Positions 22,427 through 34,618 of a stretch of 64,000 nucleotides of DNA are shown here, piece by piece. Below the pieces are notes generated by a model. The model saw only the letters and a program-made list of their open reading frames with translations. It made no database searches and was not told the DNA's origin. A program made the translations under genes and the position numbers. The first letter of the stretch is position 1, and each line of letters begins with the position of its first letter. This DNA is from a virus (taxonomy: Duplodnaviria > Caudoviricetes): positions 14,588 to 78,587 of IMG/VR virus record IMGVR_UViG_3300022824_000016, one strand, 5' to 3'.

Positions 22427-22592
22427 GGTTTATCGCAGTAAACGATAGCGAACCGGGCGAAACTTACGAACGGAAGGCGCGGGTTCGAATCCCGCAGGGC
22501 GCCCCAAAAAAATATGCGCCCTTGGCTCAGGGGTAGAGCGTCTGCATCAGATTAAAAGTTTCGGGCTGGTAAGCAAGGCGTGCTGCACAACC
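22427..22592 (+). ncRNA. Circularly permuted tRNA mimic (YrlA-like)
   Basis: T arm (22479-95), then acceptor strands AGGGCGC/GCGCCCT joined by a loop, then D arm (22525-39); closed by CGAAACTT/AAGTTTCG. Confidence 0.7.
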
Positions 22593-22665
22593 AATCGACT
22601 AGCTCAGTTGGTAGAGCGTCTGACTTGTAATCAGAATGTCGCCGGTTCAAATCCGGTGTCGATAT
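22593..22665 (+). tRNA. tRNA-Thr(UGU)-like, 1-72 mismatch, no encoded CCA
   Basis: Cloverleaf with anticodon arm TCTGA CTTGTAA TCAGA. Confidence 0.7.
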
Positions 22666-22670
22666 TCGTA

Positions 22671-22707
22671 GGGCCGTCCGCGCGGAAGCGGGCGGCCCAT
22701 TAATTTT
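22671..22707 (+). terminator. GC-rich hairpin terminator after the ncRNA cluster
   Basis: GGGCCGTCCG/CGGGCGGCCC stem followed by an AT/T run. Confidence 0.6.
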
Positions 22708-22881: not shown

Positions 22882-22985
22882 GCCGTTCCAGAAAAGTGGA
22901 CAGCTTTTCAATTGTGGCATTTAGATGTGTTATTTTAATTGCGCGCATCGCATAAAATCAATAAACTGTTTGCGAGGAGTTTGCG

Positions 22986-25247
22986 ATGATTCAACACTTA
23001 ACCTACGATGACACCTATGTTTATGTGCATGCCGCTGATACGTCGCTGAAAACCACCAAAGCCTTTACGCATGGCACGATTGTTTTTGATATAACATCGC
23101 GCACGGTGGTTTTTGGAAATCTGGACGCCGTGGAGATTCCAAAAGGTCTCATTCTTGAAGCAGGCAAAACGCTCACCTTTCAACTGGTGGGGTCCAACGG
23201 CAAATTGCGCCCGCAGACTCGCTCCGGCGCATTGCTGGGGAATGAGAAACATCCGGAGCTGCTGCGTGTGTCTGGCATGGCAAAGACACCACGCCGATTT
23301 GCCGCTGAAGACGGTTGGGGAAATGCAATCTATAAATTCCGCGCCTACTTTACACATCCCGGAATTGACATGACCTCCGACGGACAGTTCAAAAAATTTG
23401 AAGATCTTCCTGAGTGGCTCAGAGGCTGTATTGAAAGACAAAAAGCGTTATGGAACCGGCTGGCGTGGCTTTGCCGCGATGCGCGGAGAAAATGCTCTCC
23501 GGTTTTGCCTGAGCAGATCGCAGAGTTTGTGGCGAATACAATCCTGCCAGAGATCGATGCTTTCAATCTAACGCGGAGCAGAGACAAAACCAAAGAAAAA
23601 ATGCGGCACCCAGCTAAACTCAAAATAGCAGCACCCGGCGTGGACGGGTTGTGGAGTTTTGTTGGCGAACTGCGCGGGCGGATCGAAAAAAAACTCCCGG
23701 TACCAGATGGGCTGCTCGAAAAGGTGGTGGAATATGCCGAACAGTTTAAACCAGACTATACGCCACTGAATGAGTTTATGCGCGACTTTACAGAGATTGC
23801 TGAAAAAGAGGCTGTGGCATTGGGACTGAAACGCTTTGAGATCCGGCCTACTGTGAGCGCCTTCAAAGCAGTTCTGGACCGACGTAAAACTACCGCAGCT
23901 TCCTGGTCAGAAGGCTGGCCATTGATCAAATATCCTGACGGCCCCAAAGCTGGCAATTGGGGGATACATTATTACTTCAACAAGGCGGGTGTAGGTTCAG
24001 AACTTTTTGAAAACGGCCAAAATATACCGGGCATATGTGCAGGTCCGGCTTTTCAGCCTGCGCAGGGGGGCAGAGGAAAAGACACCATCTCTTTCTTCCA
24101 GCCTTTCGGCAAAATATCTGTTGTTGGCACAGTGACAAAACGAGCCCTACGTCCAGTAGTGATTTCGATTCCTGCAGAGAAAGGAGAGCGATGGGATTTT
24201 CATTTTTCGATCATGGAACACCGCGCTTTGCCGCTTAACTCTCACATCAAGGAATGGAAACTGATCTATCAGGATGGCAAACTTTGGCTGTGTCTGGTAG
24301 TTGAATTGCAGCGTCCAATTCCCAAAAAGGACTCACTTGCGGCGGGTTTGGAAATTGGCTGGCGGAGAACGGAAGAAGGTATCCGTTTTGCCACGCTTTA
24401 CGAACCGACAACGAAAAGCATCTGTGAAGCAACAATCAACTTTCAGCGATCTCCCAAAGATCACAAAGATCGTGTCCCGTTTCGCATTGACTTGGGTCCC
24501 ACACGATGGGAGAAACGTCATATCACTGAATTGCTTCCAGATTGGAAACCGAAAGATGCAATTCCCAATGTGATTGAAATACGAATGGTTTTAGCCGCAC
24601 GCTGTGATTATCTGAAAGATACAGCCAAAATTCGGCTGCGCAAGCATCTGGGCGAAAATACGCCGCCATGGCTGGAGAAAGCCGGAAGCAACGGTTTGCA
24701 CAGGCTGGCGCAGGAATTTATGGAAGACACTACCGTTCAAACCATTGTGAACGAATGGGAGGCAAATAATCGGCGAATTGCAAAATTGTCTGCTTTTTAT
24801 TTTGCTCAAACAACCGAGCGTTTGGAATACGCTCAACTGCAGGTAGCACACGATATTTGCAAGCATCTGCAAGCGAAAGGCATGGGACGGTTGATTTTGG
24901 AAGAAAATTTTCTGTCCAAAATTGCGCAACGGCACGACAATGAAGATCCCGAAAGTCTGAAGCGGTCGCAAAAGTATCGGCAGTTTGCAGCTCCAGGTAA
25001 ATTTGTTTCTGCAGTAAAGATGATCGCAATGAAGTATGGAATCGCAATAGAGAGTCGCGAGAACATTAACCTCACACGTATATGTCATTACTGCGATCAT
25101 CTGAATCCGTCCACCGAAGCAGAAACACTTATCTGTGAAGGGTGCGGACGGGAGATCAAGCAGGACCACAACACGGCCATTAATCTCGTGCGCTTTGAAG
25201 ATCTTGAACTGGCGGAAAAAGCACTGCACGCCGGAAGCAAAAAATAG
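22986..25247 (+). CDS. cas12m: Type V CRISPR effector, Cas12m (V-M/V-U1)-like, with an N-terminal extension
   Basis: HRALP; RuvC-I GLEIGWRRTEEG (E456); RuvC-II RLILEE (E639); AAPG; CxxC...CxxC zinc ribbon (700-720); RuvC-III QDHNTAINL (D727); abuts cas4. Confidence 0.8.
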   Translation: MIQHLTYDDTYVYVHAADTSLKTTKAFTHGTIVFDITSRTVVFGNLDAVEIPKGLILEAGKTLTFQLVGSNGKLRPQTRSGALLGNEKHPELLRVSGMAKTPRRFAAEDGWGNAIYKFRAYFTHPGIDMTSDGQFKKFEDLPEWLRGCIERQKALWNRLAWLCRDARRKCSPVLPEQIAEFVANTILPEIDAFNLTRSRDKTKEKMRHPAKLKIAAPGVDGLWSFVGELRGRIEKKLPVPDGLLEKVVEYAEQFKPDYTPLNEFMRDFTEIAEKEAVALGLKRFEIRPTVSAFKAVLDRRKTTAASWSEGWPLIKYPDGPKAGNWGIHYYFNKAGVGSELFENGQNIPGICAGPAFQPAQGGRGKDTISFFQPFGKISVVGTVTKRALRPVVISIPAEKGERWDFHFSIMEHRALPLNSHIKEWKLIYQDGKLWLCLVVELQRPIPKKDSLAAGLEIGWRRTEEGIRFATLYEPTTKSICEATINFQRSPKDHKDRVPFRIDLGPTRWEKRHITELLPDWKPKDAIPNVIEIRMVLAARCDYLKDTAKIRLRKHLGENTPPWLEKAGSNGLHRLAQEFMEDTTVQTIVNEWEANNRRIAKLSAFYFAQTTERLEYAQLQVAHDICKHLQAKGMGRLILEENFLSKIAQRHDNEDPESLKRSQKYRQFAAPGKFVSAVKMIAMKYGIAIESRENINLTRICHYCDHLNPSTEAETLICEGCGREIKQDHNTAINLVRFEDLELAEKALHAGSKK

Positions 25248-25883
25248 ATGGAGGACGATGATTTCATTTTGATCTCTGCGCTACAGCACTATAGCTATTG
25301 CCAGCGTCAGTGTGCATTGATTCACGCAGAACAGAGTTTTGCGGATAACGTGCACACGGCGCGAGGCAACGCGGATCATAGATTCGTCGATCTGGAAGGT
25401 TATGAATCACATGCAGATGTGCATATCGAACGAGCACTTCCTCTGGTTTGTGAGAAGATCGGTTTGCGTGGAAAAGCCGATATTGTCGAATTTTTCTCTG
25501 ACGGTTCAGCCTATCCCGTCGAGTACAAACATGGTGTGCGTCGCCCGCAGAATCATGACGACATACAACTGGTTGCCCAAGCTCTCTGCCTTGAAGAGAT
25601 GACTGGCCATGTTGTACCGTTTGGTGCAATTTATCACATCGGTAGCCGTCGAAGACGCGAAGTAAAGATCACAGATGAATTACGCCAACAGGTGGTTGAC
25701 ATAACTCAGACAATTCGGGAAATGCTGCAATCAGAAAAGATGCCACCTGCCCCCAACGATGCTCGTTGTACTGAATGCTCACTGATTGAAATCTGTCAAC
25801 CGCAAATGCTTGCAGAACAAGTGAAACGGCAGACTTTGCGCAAAAATTTGTTCAGCGTGGAGGATGATTGCAGATCCTGTTAA
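25248..25883 (+). CDS. cas4: CRISPR-associated exonuclease Cas4 (I-C-like)
   Basis: ISALQHYSYCQRQ, GKADIVE, PVEYKHG, QLVAQALCLEEM and C-terminal CxxCxxxxxC. Confidence 0.95.
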   Translation: MEDDDFILISALQHYSYCQRQCALIHAEQSFADNVHTARGNADHRFVDLEGYESHADVHIERALPLVCEKIGLRGKADIVEFFSDGSAYPVEYKHGVRRPQNHDDIQLVAQALCLEEMTGHVVPFGAIYHIGSRRRREVKITDELRQQVVDITQTIREMLQSEKMPPAPNDARCTECSLIEICQPQMLAEQVKRQTLRKNLFSVEDDCRSC

Positions 25884-26899
25884 ATACTCTTTATCTAACT
25901 CTGCCCGGCTATCTGCATTTAGATAACGATACCTTGCGTTTTGATGTGGAGCGAATTACCCGTTTGCGAGTGCCACTACATCACATTGGAGGCGTTGTCT
26001 GCTTTGGCGACGTGCTGGTTTCGCCTGCGGTAATGGGACGGTTAGCCGGAGAAGGAAAGTCGTTGGTATTTCTTGATCGGAATGGACGCTTTAAGGCTCG
26101 TCTTGAAGGACCAGTCAACGGCAATATTTTGCTACGTAAAGCACAGTTTGCGCATGCTGATTCGCCAATGTTTGTCTTGGCACATGCCAAAGCCTGCATA
26201 GCGGGTAAACTGAAAAACAGCCGTTGCGTGCTCTTGCGTAGTGCACGCGATGCTGGCGAAGAAAGCGATGCCGAACGACTGCGTGAAGTTACGAAATCCA
26301 TTGCTGTCAATTTGCGCTCTCTGGAGTCGGCACCAACGCTCGATGTTGTACGCGGTCTAGAGGGTGAGTCGGCTCGCTGTTATTTTGCGGTGTTTTCTTG
26401 TTTAATTCACAGGGAGCAACGTGCAGCGTTTACGTTGGATGGCCGGAGTCGCCGTCCACCACGGGATCGGATGAACGCATTGCTTTCCTTTCTCTACAGC
26501 ATGGTGATGAACGATTGCCGCAGTGCGCTCGAATCTGTTGGACTTGATCCGCAACTTGGTTATCTTCATACTGTGCGTCCTGGACGTGCATCATTGGCTC
26601 TTGATCTGATGGAAGAGTTTCGTTCCGTTATCGCAGATCGGCTAGCGGTTACTTTGGTCAATCGTAAACAAATCCAAGCAAATGATTTTGAAGAACGACC
26701 AGGTGGCATGGTGCAGTTACGGGATGCTGCACGCAAGACGCTGGTTCTTGCTTTTCAGGAACGCAAGCGAGATCTTACTTCCCATCCATTGCTTGATCAA
26801 AAGTTAACCATAGGATTACTACCTCAGATTCAAGCGCGACTATTGGCCCGTGTTATTCGTGGTGAAGTCGAGGACTATCTTCCTTATTTGGAGGGTTAG
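25868..26899 (+). CDS. cas1: CRISPR-associated integrase Cas1 (I-C-like)
   Basis: [43 protein letters not shown] and [10 protein letters not shown] motifs. Confidence 0.97.
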
Positions 26900-26901
26900 C
26901 T

Positions 26902-27192
26902 GTGCTTATTTTGGTGTGTTATGACGTAGCGACGGATACCCCACAAGGTCGAAGACGCTTGCACCGAGTGGCTAAAACTTGTGAGGCTGTTGGCCAGCGA
27001 GTACAGCGGTCAGTTTTTGAATGCCATGTAAACCAAATAGAATATGAGAAATTGGAACGGAAGCTGCTGGATGAAATTGATCCTTTGGAAGATTGCTTGC
27101 GCTTTTATCGGTTGACCGAACCGTTCAACCAACATTTGAAGGAATACGGTAAATTCAAGGCATTCGATTTTGATGGACCATTGATTGTGTGA
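26902..27192 (+). CDS. cas2: CRISPR-associated Cas2 (I-C-like)
   Basis: LILVCYDV...[10 protein letters not shown]...[11 protein letters not shown]...D.LRFY. Confidence 0.97.
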
Positions 27193-27377: not shown

Positions 27378-28131
27378 GGCACAATGAACATAAAGTGCAT
27401 CGCACAGATGCAACATGCCCTGATTCAGCACTTCAACGCCCACAACCTATCGGCACAATGAACATAAAGTGCATCGCACAGATGCAACAGAGAAAGCTAC
27501 AGTTCGATCAACGATGCTAGATCGGCACAATGAACATAAAGTGCATCGCACAGATGCAACTGTGAGGCTCGCTGGCTCACGGCCCTTCGTGATAGGCACA
27601 ATGAACATAAAGTGCATCGCACAGATGCAACTCAGCAGCGTGCGTCTGGAGCGGCAACAATACCGGGGCACAATGAACATAAAGTGCATCGCACAGATGC
27701 AACTTATCCGCTGCTGTGCCAACAATACTACCCGACTGGGCACAATGAACATAAAGTGCATCGCACAGATGCAACGTAATCTGTCTGCTCCTGAACAGCA
27801 CTATTTCGCGGCACAATGAACATAAAGTGCATCGCACAGATGCAACCAGAACTACTGGTGAGTTCACTGCCCATTGATCTTGGCACAATGAACATAAAGT
27901 GCATCGCACAGATGCAACCAGAACTACTGGTGAGTTCACTGCCCATTGATCTTGGCACAATGAACATAAAGTGCATCGCACAGATGCAACTGATAGCGTG
28001 CGCCGCCCTGCATCGCAGGTCCGCGGCACAATGAACATAAAGTGCATCGCACAGATGCAACTGAATACCATTCCAACGTTGTTGCGTGATCCAAGGCACA
28101 ATGAACATAAAGTGCATCGCACAGATGCAAC
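27378..28131 (+). CRISPR. Main CRISPR array: 11 identical 37-nt repeats, 10 spacers of 33-37 nt
   Basis: Repeat GGCACAATGAACATAAAGTGCATCGCACAGATGCAAC; TGCATC/GATGCA hairpin at the 3' end; spacers 7 and 8 identical. Confidence 0.99.
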
Positions 28132-33328: not shown

Positions 33329-34618
33329 TCAGGCCACCAGGTGCACGTCATATTCGCTTTCATGACGACATTTGTCGATAAAGTCGGCCCAGTGCTGCAT
33401 CATTTTAGTGCGGGCAGCCAGATATTTTGCTTTGTTGTAGACGGCGGCAACCTCACCTTTGCCGATATGCGAAAGCTGCATCTCAACATGCGTTGGATCA
33501 AAGCCCTGCTCATTGAGATACGTAGACGCAATGTGCCTCCAGCCGTGTCCGGTCATGCGGCCTTTATAGCCCATCCGATCCAGTGCTTTGAGAATAGTAT
33601 TGTTGCTCATTATGCCCGTGCCACCGTTGTAATCAGGAAAAAGACGATCTGTATCGCCACTGACAGTTTGCAGACGTTTTAGTACGGCAAGAGCCTGTGA
33701 GGAGAGCGGCACAATATGTTCGCGCTTCATCTTCATGCGTTCTGCCGGGATAACCCAGAGATTCTGTTTCCAATCGATTTCTTCCCATCGGCCACCGATC
33801 AACTCCCCGGTACGAATAAAGGTCAGGCTGAGTAGTTCCATGGCCAGCCGGGTCAGAACGTTTCCGTTATAGTTGCGCATCTTTGCAAGCAGTTCCGGTA
33901 CATCACCGATGTCCAGATGGGCGAAGTTCTTTTGAACTACTCTGGACAGGATCTGGCCCGGCTCGATGCTGGCAGCTGGATTTGTGGCATTTTCATCAAG
34001 AAAGCCATTATTCAATCCCCAATCAAAGATCTGACGAATGATCTGCAGATTGCGGCGCGCAATATCGCGGGCACCGCGGGCATCCACAGCCTGAGAGAGA
34101 GCCACGATGTCCATGCGTTTGATCTCATCGGGACGTTTTTTGCCAATTTGAGCAATTACGTCGTTTTCCAGCCGGGCTTCAACATTGGCGGCGTATTTCC
34201 GGTTCTTATCGGCTTTCCACCAGGTAAACCATTTACGGACCAGATACTCGAAACAGTCCGTAGCGGTTTTCTCTTCCTCGGCGCACTCCGCTTTTTTCAC
34301 TTCTTTGGCTTCTTTACGCACAGCCATGGGATCGACGCCTGTGGCCAGAAGAGCCCGAGCTTTGGCATGGCACACACGTGCTTCCGCCAGGGAAACATCG
34401 GGATACTTGCCCAATGCCATTTGTTTTTCTTTTCCTTCAAAACGATAGCGCCAACGCCAGAGTTTTCCACCAGTTGGTGCAACTAACAGATAAAGTCCTC
34501 CTCTATCAGCGAGGTAGTATGGCTTTGATTCTGGCATGGATTTTTGGCATTTCAGATTGGTTAATTCGGCTGAAAGCTTCGATGAATTGCTTGATGTTTT
34601 TTCTTTCAAAGTTTGCAT
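33329..34618 (-). CDS. int: P4-family tyrosine integrase
   Basis: Arm domain (DRGGLYLLV...WRWRYRF.GKE...LG.YP.VSL.EAR); catalytic R (IRTGEL), HGWRH, LSH and VYN. Confidence 0.92.
   Translation of the reverse strand: MQTLKEKTSSNSSKLSAELTNLKCQKSMPESKPYYLADRGGLYLLVAPTGGKLWRWRYRFEGKEKQMALGKYPDVSLAEARVCHAKARALLATGVDPMAVRKEAKEVKKAECAEEEKTATDCFEYLVRKWFTWWKADKNRKYAANVEARLENDVIAQIGKKRPDEIKRMDIVALSQAVDARGARDIARRNLQIIRQIFDWGLNNGFLDENATNPAASIEPGQILSRVVQKNFAHLDIGDVPELLAKMRNYNGNVLTRLAMELLSLTFIRTGELIGGRWEEIDWKQNLWVIPAERMKMKREHIVPLSSQALAVLKRLQTVSGDTDRLFPDYNGGTGIMSNNTILKALDRMGYKGRMTGHGWRHIASTYLNEQGFDPTHVEMQLSHIGKGEVAAVYNKAKYLAARTKMMQHWADFIDKCRHESEYDVHLVA

What the first reader, a model, noticed from the sequence alone, without database searches (positions are those of the whole stretch)
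23106..23219. Extra ~110-aa N-terminal domain on the Cas12, with an AbrB/MazE-like segment
Seen: the ORF starts at 22986 behind a strong GAGGAG RBS, while the Cas12m-like sequence begins only near residue 112; the internal Met98 has no evident RBS. Residues 41-78 (VVFGNLDAVEIPKGLILEAGKTLTFQLVGSNGKLRPQ) follow the AbrB/MazE pattern GNS.AVRIP..L...L..G..V......GKL. Inference: a swapped-hairpin DNA-binding and dimerisation module fused to an RNA-guided binder could dimerise the effector, autoregulate the cas promoter, or bind a toxin. I know of no described Cas12m fusion like this.
Basis: inference. Interest (0 to 1): 0.78.

Follow-up and report, generated by a model that had tools for sequence, protein, structure and literature searches.

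The report
Novel N-terminal domain on Cas12m-like effector

Summary
The ORF 22986-25247 (753 aa) starts behind GAGGAG. Every solved Cas12m, Cas12f and TnpB structure aligns from its own residue 1 onto model residues 105-113. Residues 1 to about 108 are therefore a true add-on ahead of the first WED strand.

The add-on is translated and conserved:
- 102 near-full-length homologues (30-95% identity; Acidobacteriaceae MAGs, peat metagenomes, IMG/VR viral contigs) carry it from the same start.
- Its dN/dS is 0.19, against 0.125 for the rest of the protein.
- Met98 is Met in only 16 of 37 aligned homologues.

The domain occurs only at the N-terminus of this Cas12 family. It is basic (median pI 9.4), with conserved K22, K25, H29, R75, Q77, R79 and K88. 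In Cas12m2 the equivalent attachment point touches the crRNA scaffold and the first guide:target base pair.

My best guess is an accessory nucleic-acid-binding module, possibly involved in pre-crRNA handling. This is a new variant of a known kind. The scan has not noted this domain on other DNA.

The parts
22974..22979 (+). Shine-Dalgarno GAGGAG, 6 nt before the start codon
   Evidence: Read directly. Most homologous loci have a purine-rich SD 5-9 nt before the aligned start.
22986..25247 (+). cas12 gene, a 753-aa Cas12m-like (V-U1/V-M-related) effector with RuvC triad E456-E639-D727
22986..23309 (+). N-terminal domain, residues 1-108: a globular alpha+beta part (1-96) plus a conserved linker (97-110, G-x-x-K/x-T-P-x-x-F..DGW)
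   Evidence: AF2 full-length pLDDT about 90 over 1-90. Folded alone: pLDDT 84.7, pTM 0.73, with the same secondary structure. Conserved in 102 homologues. dN/dS 0.19.
23106..23219 (+).
   Evidence: The hairpin motif also gives weak repeated hits in PKD/Big_9 Ig-like repeat proteins, so it is a generic hairpin.
23316..23348 (+). First WED strand (residues 111-121, GW..YKFRAYF), equivalent to residues 1 to about 12 of Cas12m2, GoCas12m, Cas12f and TnpB
   Evidence: VIA-align model and chain ranges. This is the most conserved block of the protein (65% identity).
25248..25883 (+). cas4 (I-C-like)
   Evidence: PADLOC Cas4c E 4e-75.
25868..26899 (+). cas1 (I-C-like)
   Evidence: PADLOC Cas1c E 1e-142.
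26902..27192 (+). cas2 (I-C-like)
   Evidence: PADLOC Cas2c E 6e-36.
27378..28131 (+). CRISPR array, 11 identical 37-nt repeats ending in the hairpin TGCATC-GCACA-GATGCA plus AC
   Evidence: the repeat finder. The 3' hairpin half is shared across family arrays.

Best explanation
Residues 1 to about 108 form a genuine, translated N-terminal domain that defines a family of about 750-aa Cas12m-like effectors. These effectors are found in Acidobacteriaceae and their phages. The domain folds on its own into a compact alpha+beta unit of seven to eight strands and one helix, and it has no recognisable sequence or structural relative. A conserved linker of about 12 residues joins it to the first WED strand. 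In Cas12m2 that strand (Met4, His12) stacks on the first guide:target base pair and clamps the crRNA scaffold, next to the PAM duplex. The domain would therefore sit at the crRNA-handle/PAM-proximal corner of the complex. The most likely role is an added nucleic-acid-binding module. It would use the conserved basic and polar patch (K22, K25, T24, T28 and H29 on the helix; R75, Q77 and R79 on the hairpin; K88). Its target would be the 5' flank of the repeat hairpin (pre-crRNA or crRNA handle) or the PAM-proximal DNA, stabilising RNA-guided DNA binding. Shown: the domain exists, is conserved, is translated, sits where stated and has no AbrB kinship. Inferred: it binds nucleic acid, and which nucleic acid it binds.
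Confidence: 0.42

Rival explanations
1. The domain is the missing pre-crRNA-processing site. Invariant H29, with K25 and R79, would form a metal-independent acid-base RNase centre. That centre would cut upstream of the repeat hairpin in cis, as the WED His/Lys sites of Cas12a and Cas12i do.
For: The only invariant or near-invariant polar residues of the domain are His, Lys, Arg, Gln and Thr. In Cas12m2 the processing site is unknown: neither WED H269/R270 nor RuvC D485 is needed, and the crRNA 5' end projects into solvent near where an N-terminal add-on would sit (PMC10442227). The domain is retained in clades with a dead RuvC (H-Q-D).
Against: No RNase fold or family was detected. Canonical Cas12m processes its pre-crRNA without this domain, and MsCas12m needs Mg2+ (PMC11013384). 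The geometry of the residues is untested.
Confidence: 0.15
2. The domain is a protein-protein module. It could mediate homodimerisation of the effector or recruit a host or phage partner such as RNA polymerase, a chaperone-like enhancer or an anti-anti-CRISPR factor.
Against: All these matches are below significance. The only neighbours tested (cas4, cas1, cas2) are absent next to the gene in most loci, where just a small CRISPR array follows it. The conserved surface residues are basic or polar rather than hydrophobic.
Confidence: 0.2
3. One reading: residues 41-78 are an AbrB/MazE-type swapped-hairpin module that dimerises the effector, binds the cas promoter or binds a toxin.
For: There is a local motif resemblance (IPxGLxLxxGxxLxFxL..G), and hhalign aligns residues 50-72 to AbrB profile positions 19-40.
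Against: That alignment has probability 1.5% and P 0.035 over 22 columns, against 98.9% and 1.5e-17 for the control. No PF04014 hit appeared in 34 members or in the window's own N-terminal piece (residues 1-115) at E<=10. The model is a monomeric domain of about 95 residues in which these strands pair with strands 2-7, 12-16 and 32-35. There is no helix between P52 and G59. No AbrB, MazE or SpoVT chain is among the listed structural matches. The hairpin motif matches PKD/Ig repeats equally well.
Confidence: 0.03
4. The extension is not made: translation starts at Met98 and the upstream frame is open by chance or is a leader.
For: None beyond the existence of an in-frame ATG at 23277.
Against: Met98 is Met in only 16 of 37 homologues, while position 1 is a start codon in 36 of 37. 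An SD is present before residue 1 in most loci and absent before Met98. dN/dS is 0.19 with dS 0.85. The fold prediction is confident.
Confidence: 0.02

Closest known systems
Cas12m (subtype V-M, formerly V-U1): MmCas12m2 (PDB 8hhl/8hio), GoCas12m (8pm4), UnCas12m4a (23vu)
   Different: This protein has 753 aa against 519-614. An extra domain of about 108 aa precedes the residue that is position 1 in the solved Cas12m structures, and the REC lobe carries about 45-65 further extra residues. Identity is only about 15%. The window and L043 carry a I-C-like cas4-cas1-cas2 module, whereas V-M is described as lacking adaptation genes. None of the family's motifs occurs in the held supplementary list of 134 Cas12m variants.
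Enlarged viral-origin Cas12m candidates (623-999 aa) noted by the CHOOSER study (PMC11576732)
   Same: They are virus-borne, larger than prokaryotic Cas12m, and often have an intact D-E-D triad. This family occurs on IMG/VR contigs of 28-133 kb, and the window belongs to a 78.6-kb virus record.
   Different: That paper reports only the size increase. It has no occurrence of 'N-terminal' in its text and describes no domain. I could not check whether its candidates include this family, because no supplementary files are held.
AbrB/MazE/SpoVT swapped-hairpin domain (Pfam PF04014)
   Same: A short P-x(6-7)-G-x-x-L-x-F hairpin motif.
   Different: There is no profile similarity. The spacing differs, with no helix after the Pro. 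The predicted domain is monomeric and twice the size.
PUA-like/ASCH pseudo-barrels (e.g. PDB 3iuw; phage ASCH and DUF3850 proteins)
   Different: All scores are below significance (TM below 0.4, E above 0.03), and there is no sequence signal. This is a lead only.

Membership tests
Cas12m / subtype V-M (V-U1) effector | TnpB-derived WED-REC-RuvC-TNB(zinc finger) core that matches Cas12m profiles and structures best | tested here: met
Cas12m / subtype V-M (V-U1) effector | Compact size (about 520-615 aa) with the WED strand at the very N-terminus | tested here: not met
   753 aa. The WED strand starts at residue 111, and residues 1-108 are an added domain.
Cas12m / subtype V-M (V-U1) effector | CRISPR array downstream, crRNA-only guide, usually no adaptation genes | tested here: inconclusive
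   The array is downstream in the window and in at least 18 related loci. tracrRNA was not tested. The window and L043 do carry cas4-cas1-cas2, unlike described V-M systems.
Cas12m / subtype V-M (V-U1) effector | Interference by DNA binding without dsDNA cleavage | not testable with these tools
   The triad is E456-E639-D727 here, D-E-D in most relatives and H-Q-D in a distant clade. Activity needs biochemistry.
AbrB/MazE/SpoVT (PF04014) swapped-hairpin domain | Match to the family profile | tested here: not met
   No PF04014 hit at E<=10 for the window's own N-terminal piece (residues 1-115) or at E<=1 for 34 members. hhalign against a profile of 10 Acidobacteria AbrB/MazE domains gave probability 1.5% and P 0.035; the control gave 98.9%.
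AbrB/MazE/SpoVT (PF04014) swapped-hairpin domain | Unit of about 45-50 residues (strand, strand, helix, strand, strand) forming an interdigitated beta-barrel dimer | tested here: inconclusive

The most novel reading that the evidence does not exclude
The N-terminal domain is a new fold that supplies a function canonical Cas12m lacks in cis. The most interesting version is the long-sought pre-crRNA-processing centre: a His29/Lys25/Arg79 metal-independent RNase placed at the solvent-exposed 5' end of the crRNA. An alternative is a PUA-like reader that couples RNA-guided DNA binding to recognition of a nucleic-acid feature. Either would define a new type V subtype or variant borne largely by Acidobacteria phages.
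Probability: 0.17. Interest if true: 0.75.

Novelty: new variant of a known kind. Interest (0 to 1): 0.5.

Why it matters
Cas12m proteins are used as compact DNA-binding platforms for base editing, epigenome editing and CRISPRi. How they mature their crRNA is still unresolved. Here a natural Cas12m-like lineage of more than 100 members has kept an extra, confidently folded, basic domain through all of its RuvC states. The domain sits exactly at the crRNA-handle/PAM corner. This shows a new way in which small Cas12 effectors grow by accreting domains. It also offers a testable candidate for an added RNA- or DNA-binding or RNA-processing function. In addition, the family is largely phage-borne. 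In two cases (the window and L043) it has captured a I-C-type adaptation module, which is unusual for V-M-like systems.

Tried and rejected
- AbrB/MazE kinship was rejected by Pfam on 34 members, by hhalign with a positive control and by model topology.
- Start at Met98 was rejected.
- Internal duplication of the WED domain: hhalign of the domain against residues 109-753 and against WED-II gave probabilities of 0.2-0.5%.
- The weak Pfam DUF5834 hit (E 0.011-0.013) is seen in only 1 of 34 members and is taken as chance.
- The profile search of PDB sequences gave only TFG1 at E 0.014 over 45 residues, taken as chance.
- The ESM Atlas feature search gave scores of 0.79 or less, which is uninformative.
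- Multi-stretch hits of the domain profile in PKD/Big_9/PAS repeat proteins are summed weak matches to a generic beta-hairpin (TLTFQLV..DG.L), not homology.
- Stand-alone domain genes: the short hits I checked lie on a 693-bp contig or about 200 nt from the end of a 3.6-kb contig, so they are most likely fragments. The N-terminally shortened family members start at scattered positions (residues 51-247) and look like miscalled or truncated genes, not natural forms lacking the domain.
- Literature searches found no description of this domain.
- Model coordinates and PAE were not available to me, so I could not examine the packing of the domain against WED/REC.

Full report
**1. What is at the coordinates**

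The finding lies inside a 753-aa ORF, 22986-25247 on the plus strand. GAGGAG sits at 22974-22979, 6 nt ahead of the ATG.

The gene is followed by cas4 (25248-25883), cas1 (25868-26899) and cas2 (26902-27192). These are I-C-like by PADLOC. An array of 11 identical 37-nt repeats follows.

The window is part of a 78,587-bp virus record. It also encodes an integrase, an Erf recombinase, a primase-helicase and several methyltransferases.

**2. Identity of the effector**

Pfam and NCBIfam see only the TnpB/Cas12f TNB zinc finger, below their cut-offs. Other evidence places the protein nearest Cas12m:
- The best PDB sequence hits are Cas12m chains: UnCas12m4a at E 9e-7, plus Cas12m2 and GoCas12m.
- PADLOC's Cas12u1 (V-U1 = V-M) model matches residues 403-736 at E 2e-28.

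The RuvC triad is E456-E639-D727. Relatives carry D-E-D, and a distant clade carries H-Q-D. This matches the graded RuvC decay described for Cas12m.

**3. The extension is real**

In every structural alignment, residue 1 of Cas12m, Cas12f or TnpB lands on model residues 105-113. The first WED strand is residues 111-121. A canonical Acidobacteria Cas12m from the Bigelyte list begins a few residues before the same GW..YKF strand.

A search of 5.8 billion proteins found 104 relatives, mostly 725-795 aa with about 100% coverage. Of the relatives collected from both protein searches, 102 align from residue 15 or earlier. The few shorter ones start at scattered points and look truncated.

The relatives come from Terracidiphilus and other Acidobacteriaceae MAGs, from peat and bog metagenomes, and from six IMG/VR viral contigs.

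Evidence that the N-terminal 108 residues are translated and selected:
- They are conserved about as well as the rest of the protein: 47% against 50% overall, and 28% against 31% in the most distant clade.
- Invariant residues are H29, P52, L67, G72, R79 and G97, and there is a TKAFTHG motif.
- Against the 82%-identical L008 gene, dN/dS is 0.19 for the domain and 0.125 for the rest, at dS of about 0.85.
- Position 1 is a start codon in 36 of 37 sequences, and most loci have an SD there.
- Met98 is Met in only 16 of 37 and has no SD.

Translation from 22986 is therefore well supported.

**4. The fold**

In the full-length model the first 90 residues have pLDDT of about 90. Folded alone from 34 N-terminal pieces, the domain gives pLDDT 84.7 and pTM 0.73 with the same elements: strands 2-7, 11-16, 32-35, 40-43, 62-68, 74-82 and 92-95, and helix 21-29. 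It is thus an autonomous alpha+beta domain of about 95 residues. A conserved linker joins it to the WED strand.

No solved or predicted viral structure matches it convincingly:
- Foldseek against the PDB gives nothing below E 0.14.
- BFVD gives a best E of 0.037.

**5. The AbrB/MazE hypothesis**

- Pfam finds no PF04014 match in the window's own N-terminal piece (residues 1-115) at E<=10, nor in any of 34 family members at E<=1.
- I took ten genuine AbrB/MazE domains from Acidobacteria genomes that also carry this Cas12 family. I built a profile from them and compared it with the domain profile.
Two halves of the AbrB set matched each other at 98.9% and 1.5e-17.
- In the model, residues 41-78 are strands and a hairpin of a larger monomeric sheet. 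The P52-G59 spacing leaves no room for the AbrB helix.
- The hairpin motif TLTFQLV..DG.L also produces summed weak hits in PKD/Big_9 repeat proteins, which shows that it is generic.

The resemblance is therefore local and not evidence of kinship.

**6. Distribution of the domain**

A profile search of 1.84 billion representative proteins finds the domain only at the N-terminus of this Cas12 family or in short fragments. The two fragments I checked lie on a 693-bp contig and about 200 nt from the end of a 3.6-kb contig. There is no stand-alone or differently fused form. There is also no sign that the domain arose by duplication of the WED domain.

**7. How it most likely works**

In Cas12m2, Met4 stacks on the first guide:target base pair and His12 clamps a flipped-out base of the crRNA scaffold. 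The PAM duplex lies between WED and REC1. The crRNA 5' end points into solvent, and the pre-crRNA-processing site is unknown (PMC10442227).

A domain attached just before that strand therefore sits at the crRNA-handle/PAM-proximal corner. The domain is basic (median pI 9.4). Its conserved polar residues are K22, K25, T24, T28 and H29 on the helix, R75, Q77 and R79 on the hairpin, and K88. It is retained in clades with intact, altered and dead RuvC triads.

I therefore favour an accessory nucleic-acid-binding role, at confidence 0.42 for that mechanism. The rivals are:
- a cis pre-crRNA RNase (0.15);
- a protein-interaction or dimerisation module (0.20);
- AbrB (0.03);
- not translated (0.02).

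One point counts against sequence-specific reading of the repeat's 5' half: that half is degenerate in many small family arrays.

**8. Novelty**

I found no description of such a domain in the following sources:
- the Cas12m structural and biochemical papers;
- the TnpB/Cas12 survey;
- the 2025 CRISPR-Cas classification;
- the held supplementary list of 134 Cas12m variants.

The CHOOSER study noted that viral-origin Cas12m candidates are larger (623-999 aa), but it described no domain.

The protein fails the size and N-terminal architecture feature of canonical Cas12m while meeting the core-fold feature. I file it as a new variant of a known kind.

**9. Side observations**

- Many relatives carry an intact solitary repeat hairpin 15-45 nt upstream of the cas12 start. 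The window has only a decayed copy at 22943-22962. This could be an RNA-based autoregulatory site, and it is a more likely route to autoregulation than an AbrB domain.
- Upstream of the gene lie a tRNA-Thr and a sub-threshold YrlA-like match.
- Only the window and L043 carry the adaptation module.

Noticed in passing
window 22943-22962; L001, L012, L017, L021, L022, L027, L035, L039, L043, L070 (15-45 nt upstream of each cas12 start): A solitary hairpin like the 3' half of the family's CRISPR repeat (AGTGCATCG-N4-AGATGCAAC type) sits just upstream of the cas12 start in at least 10 of 32 loci. It shows locus-specific compensatory changes, for example TGCGTC..GACGCA in L017. The SD and start codon lie where a spacer would lie. 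The window and L008 have only a decayed copy (14 of 20 matches). This is a possible Cas12-binding site in the gene's own 5' UTR, giving CreR-like or translational autoregulation.
   Followed up: partly
window 24351-24353 (E456), 24900-24902 (E639), 25164-25166 (D727): The RuvC-I Asp is replaced by Glu (GLEIGWRR) in the window and its closest relatives (11 of the 37 aligned sequences). Most of the family has D-E-D, and a distant clade (P0100-P0106) has H-Q-D, resembling the H-Q triad reported for Cas12m clade 1.
   Followed up: partly
window 25248-27192; L043 7197-9144: A I-C-like cas4-cas1-cas2 module follows the effector only in the window and in L043 (a 130-kb contig with a 22-repeat array). 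All other related loci have only a small, often degenerate array. V-M systems are described as lacking adaptation genes.
   Followed up: partly
window 22459-22565 and 22593-22665: A tRNA-Thr(TGT) gene (Rfam 63.9 bits; ARAGORN) is preceded by a sub-threshold YrlA/Y-RNA-like match (33.3 bits against a gathering score of 69, E 2e-4). A terminator-like hairpin at 22671-22698 follows. All lie upstream of the cas operon.
   Followed up: partly
whole window; G000: The window is bases 14588-78587 of a 78.6-kb virus record. It encodes an integrase (33329-34618, minus strand), an Erf-like annealing protein, a primase-helicase and at least four DNA methyltransferase-like genes. Related cas12 genes lie on 55-133-kb IMG/VR contigs and on about 129-kb metagenome contigs, so the family looks largely phage- or MGE-borne in Acidobacteria.
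   Followed up: partly
window 27810-27953: Two adjacent spacers of the array are identical (duplicated repeat-spacer unit, 100% over 72 nt).
   Followed up: no
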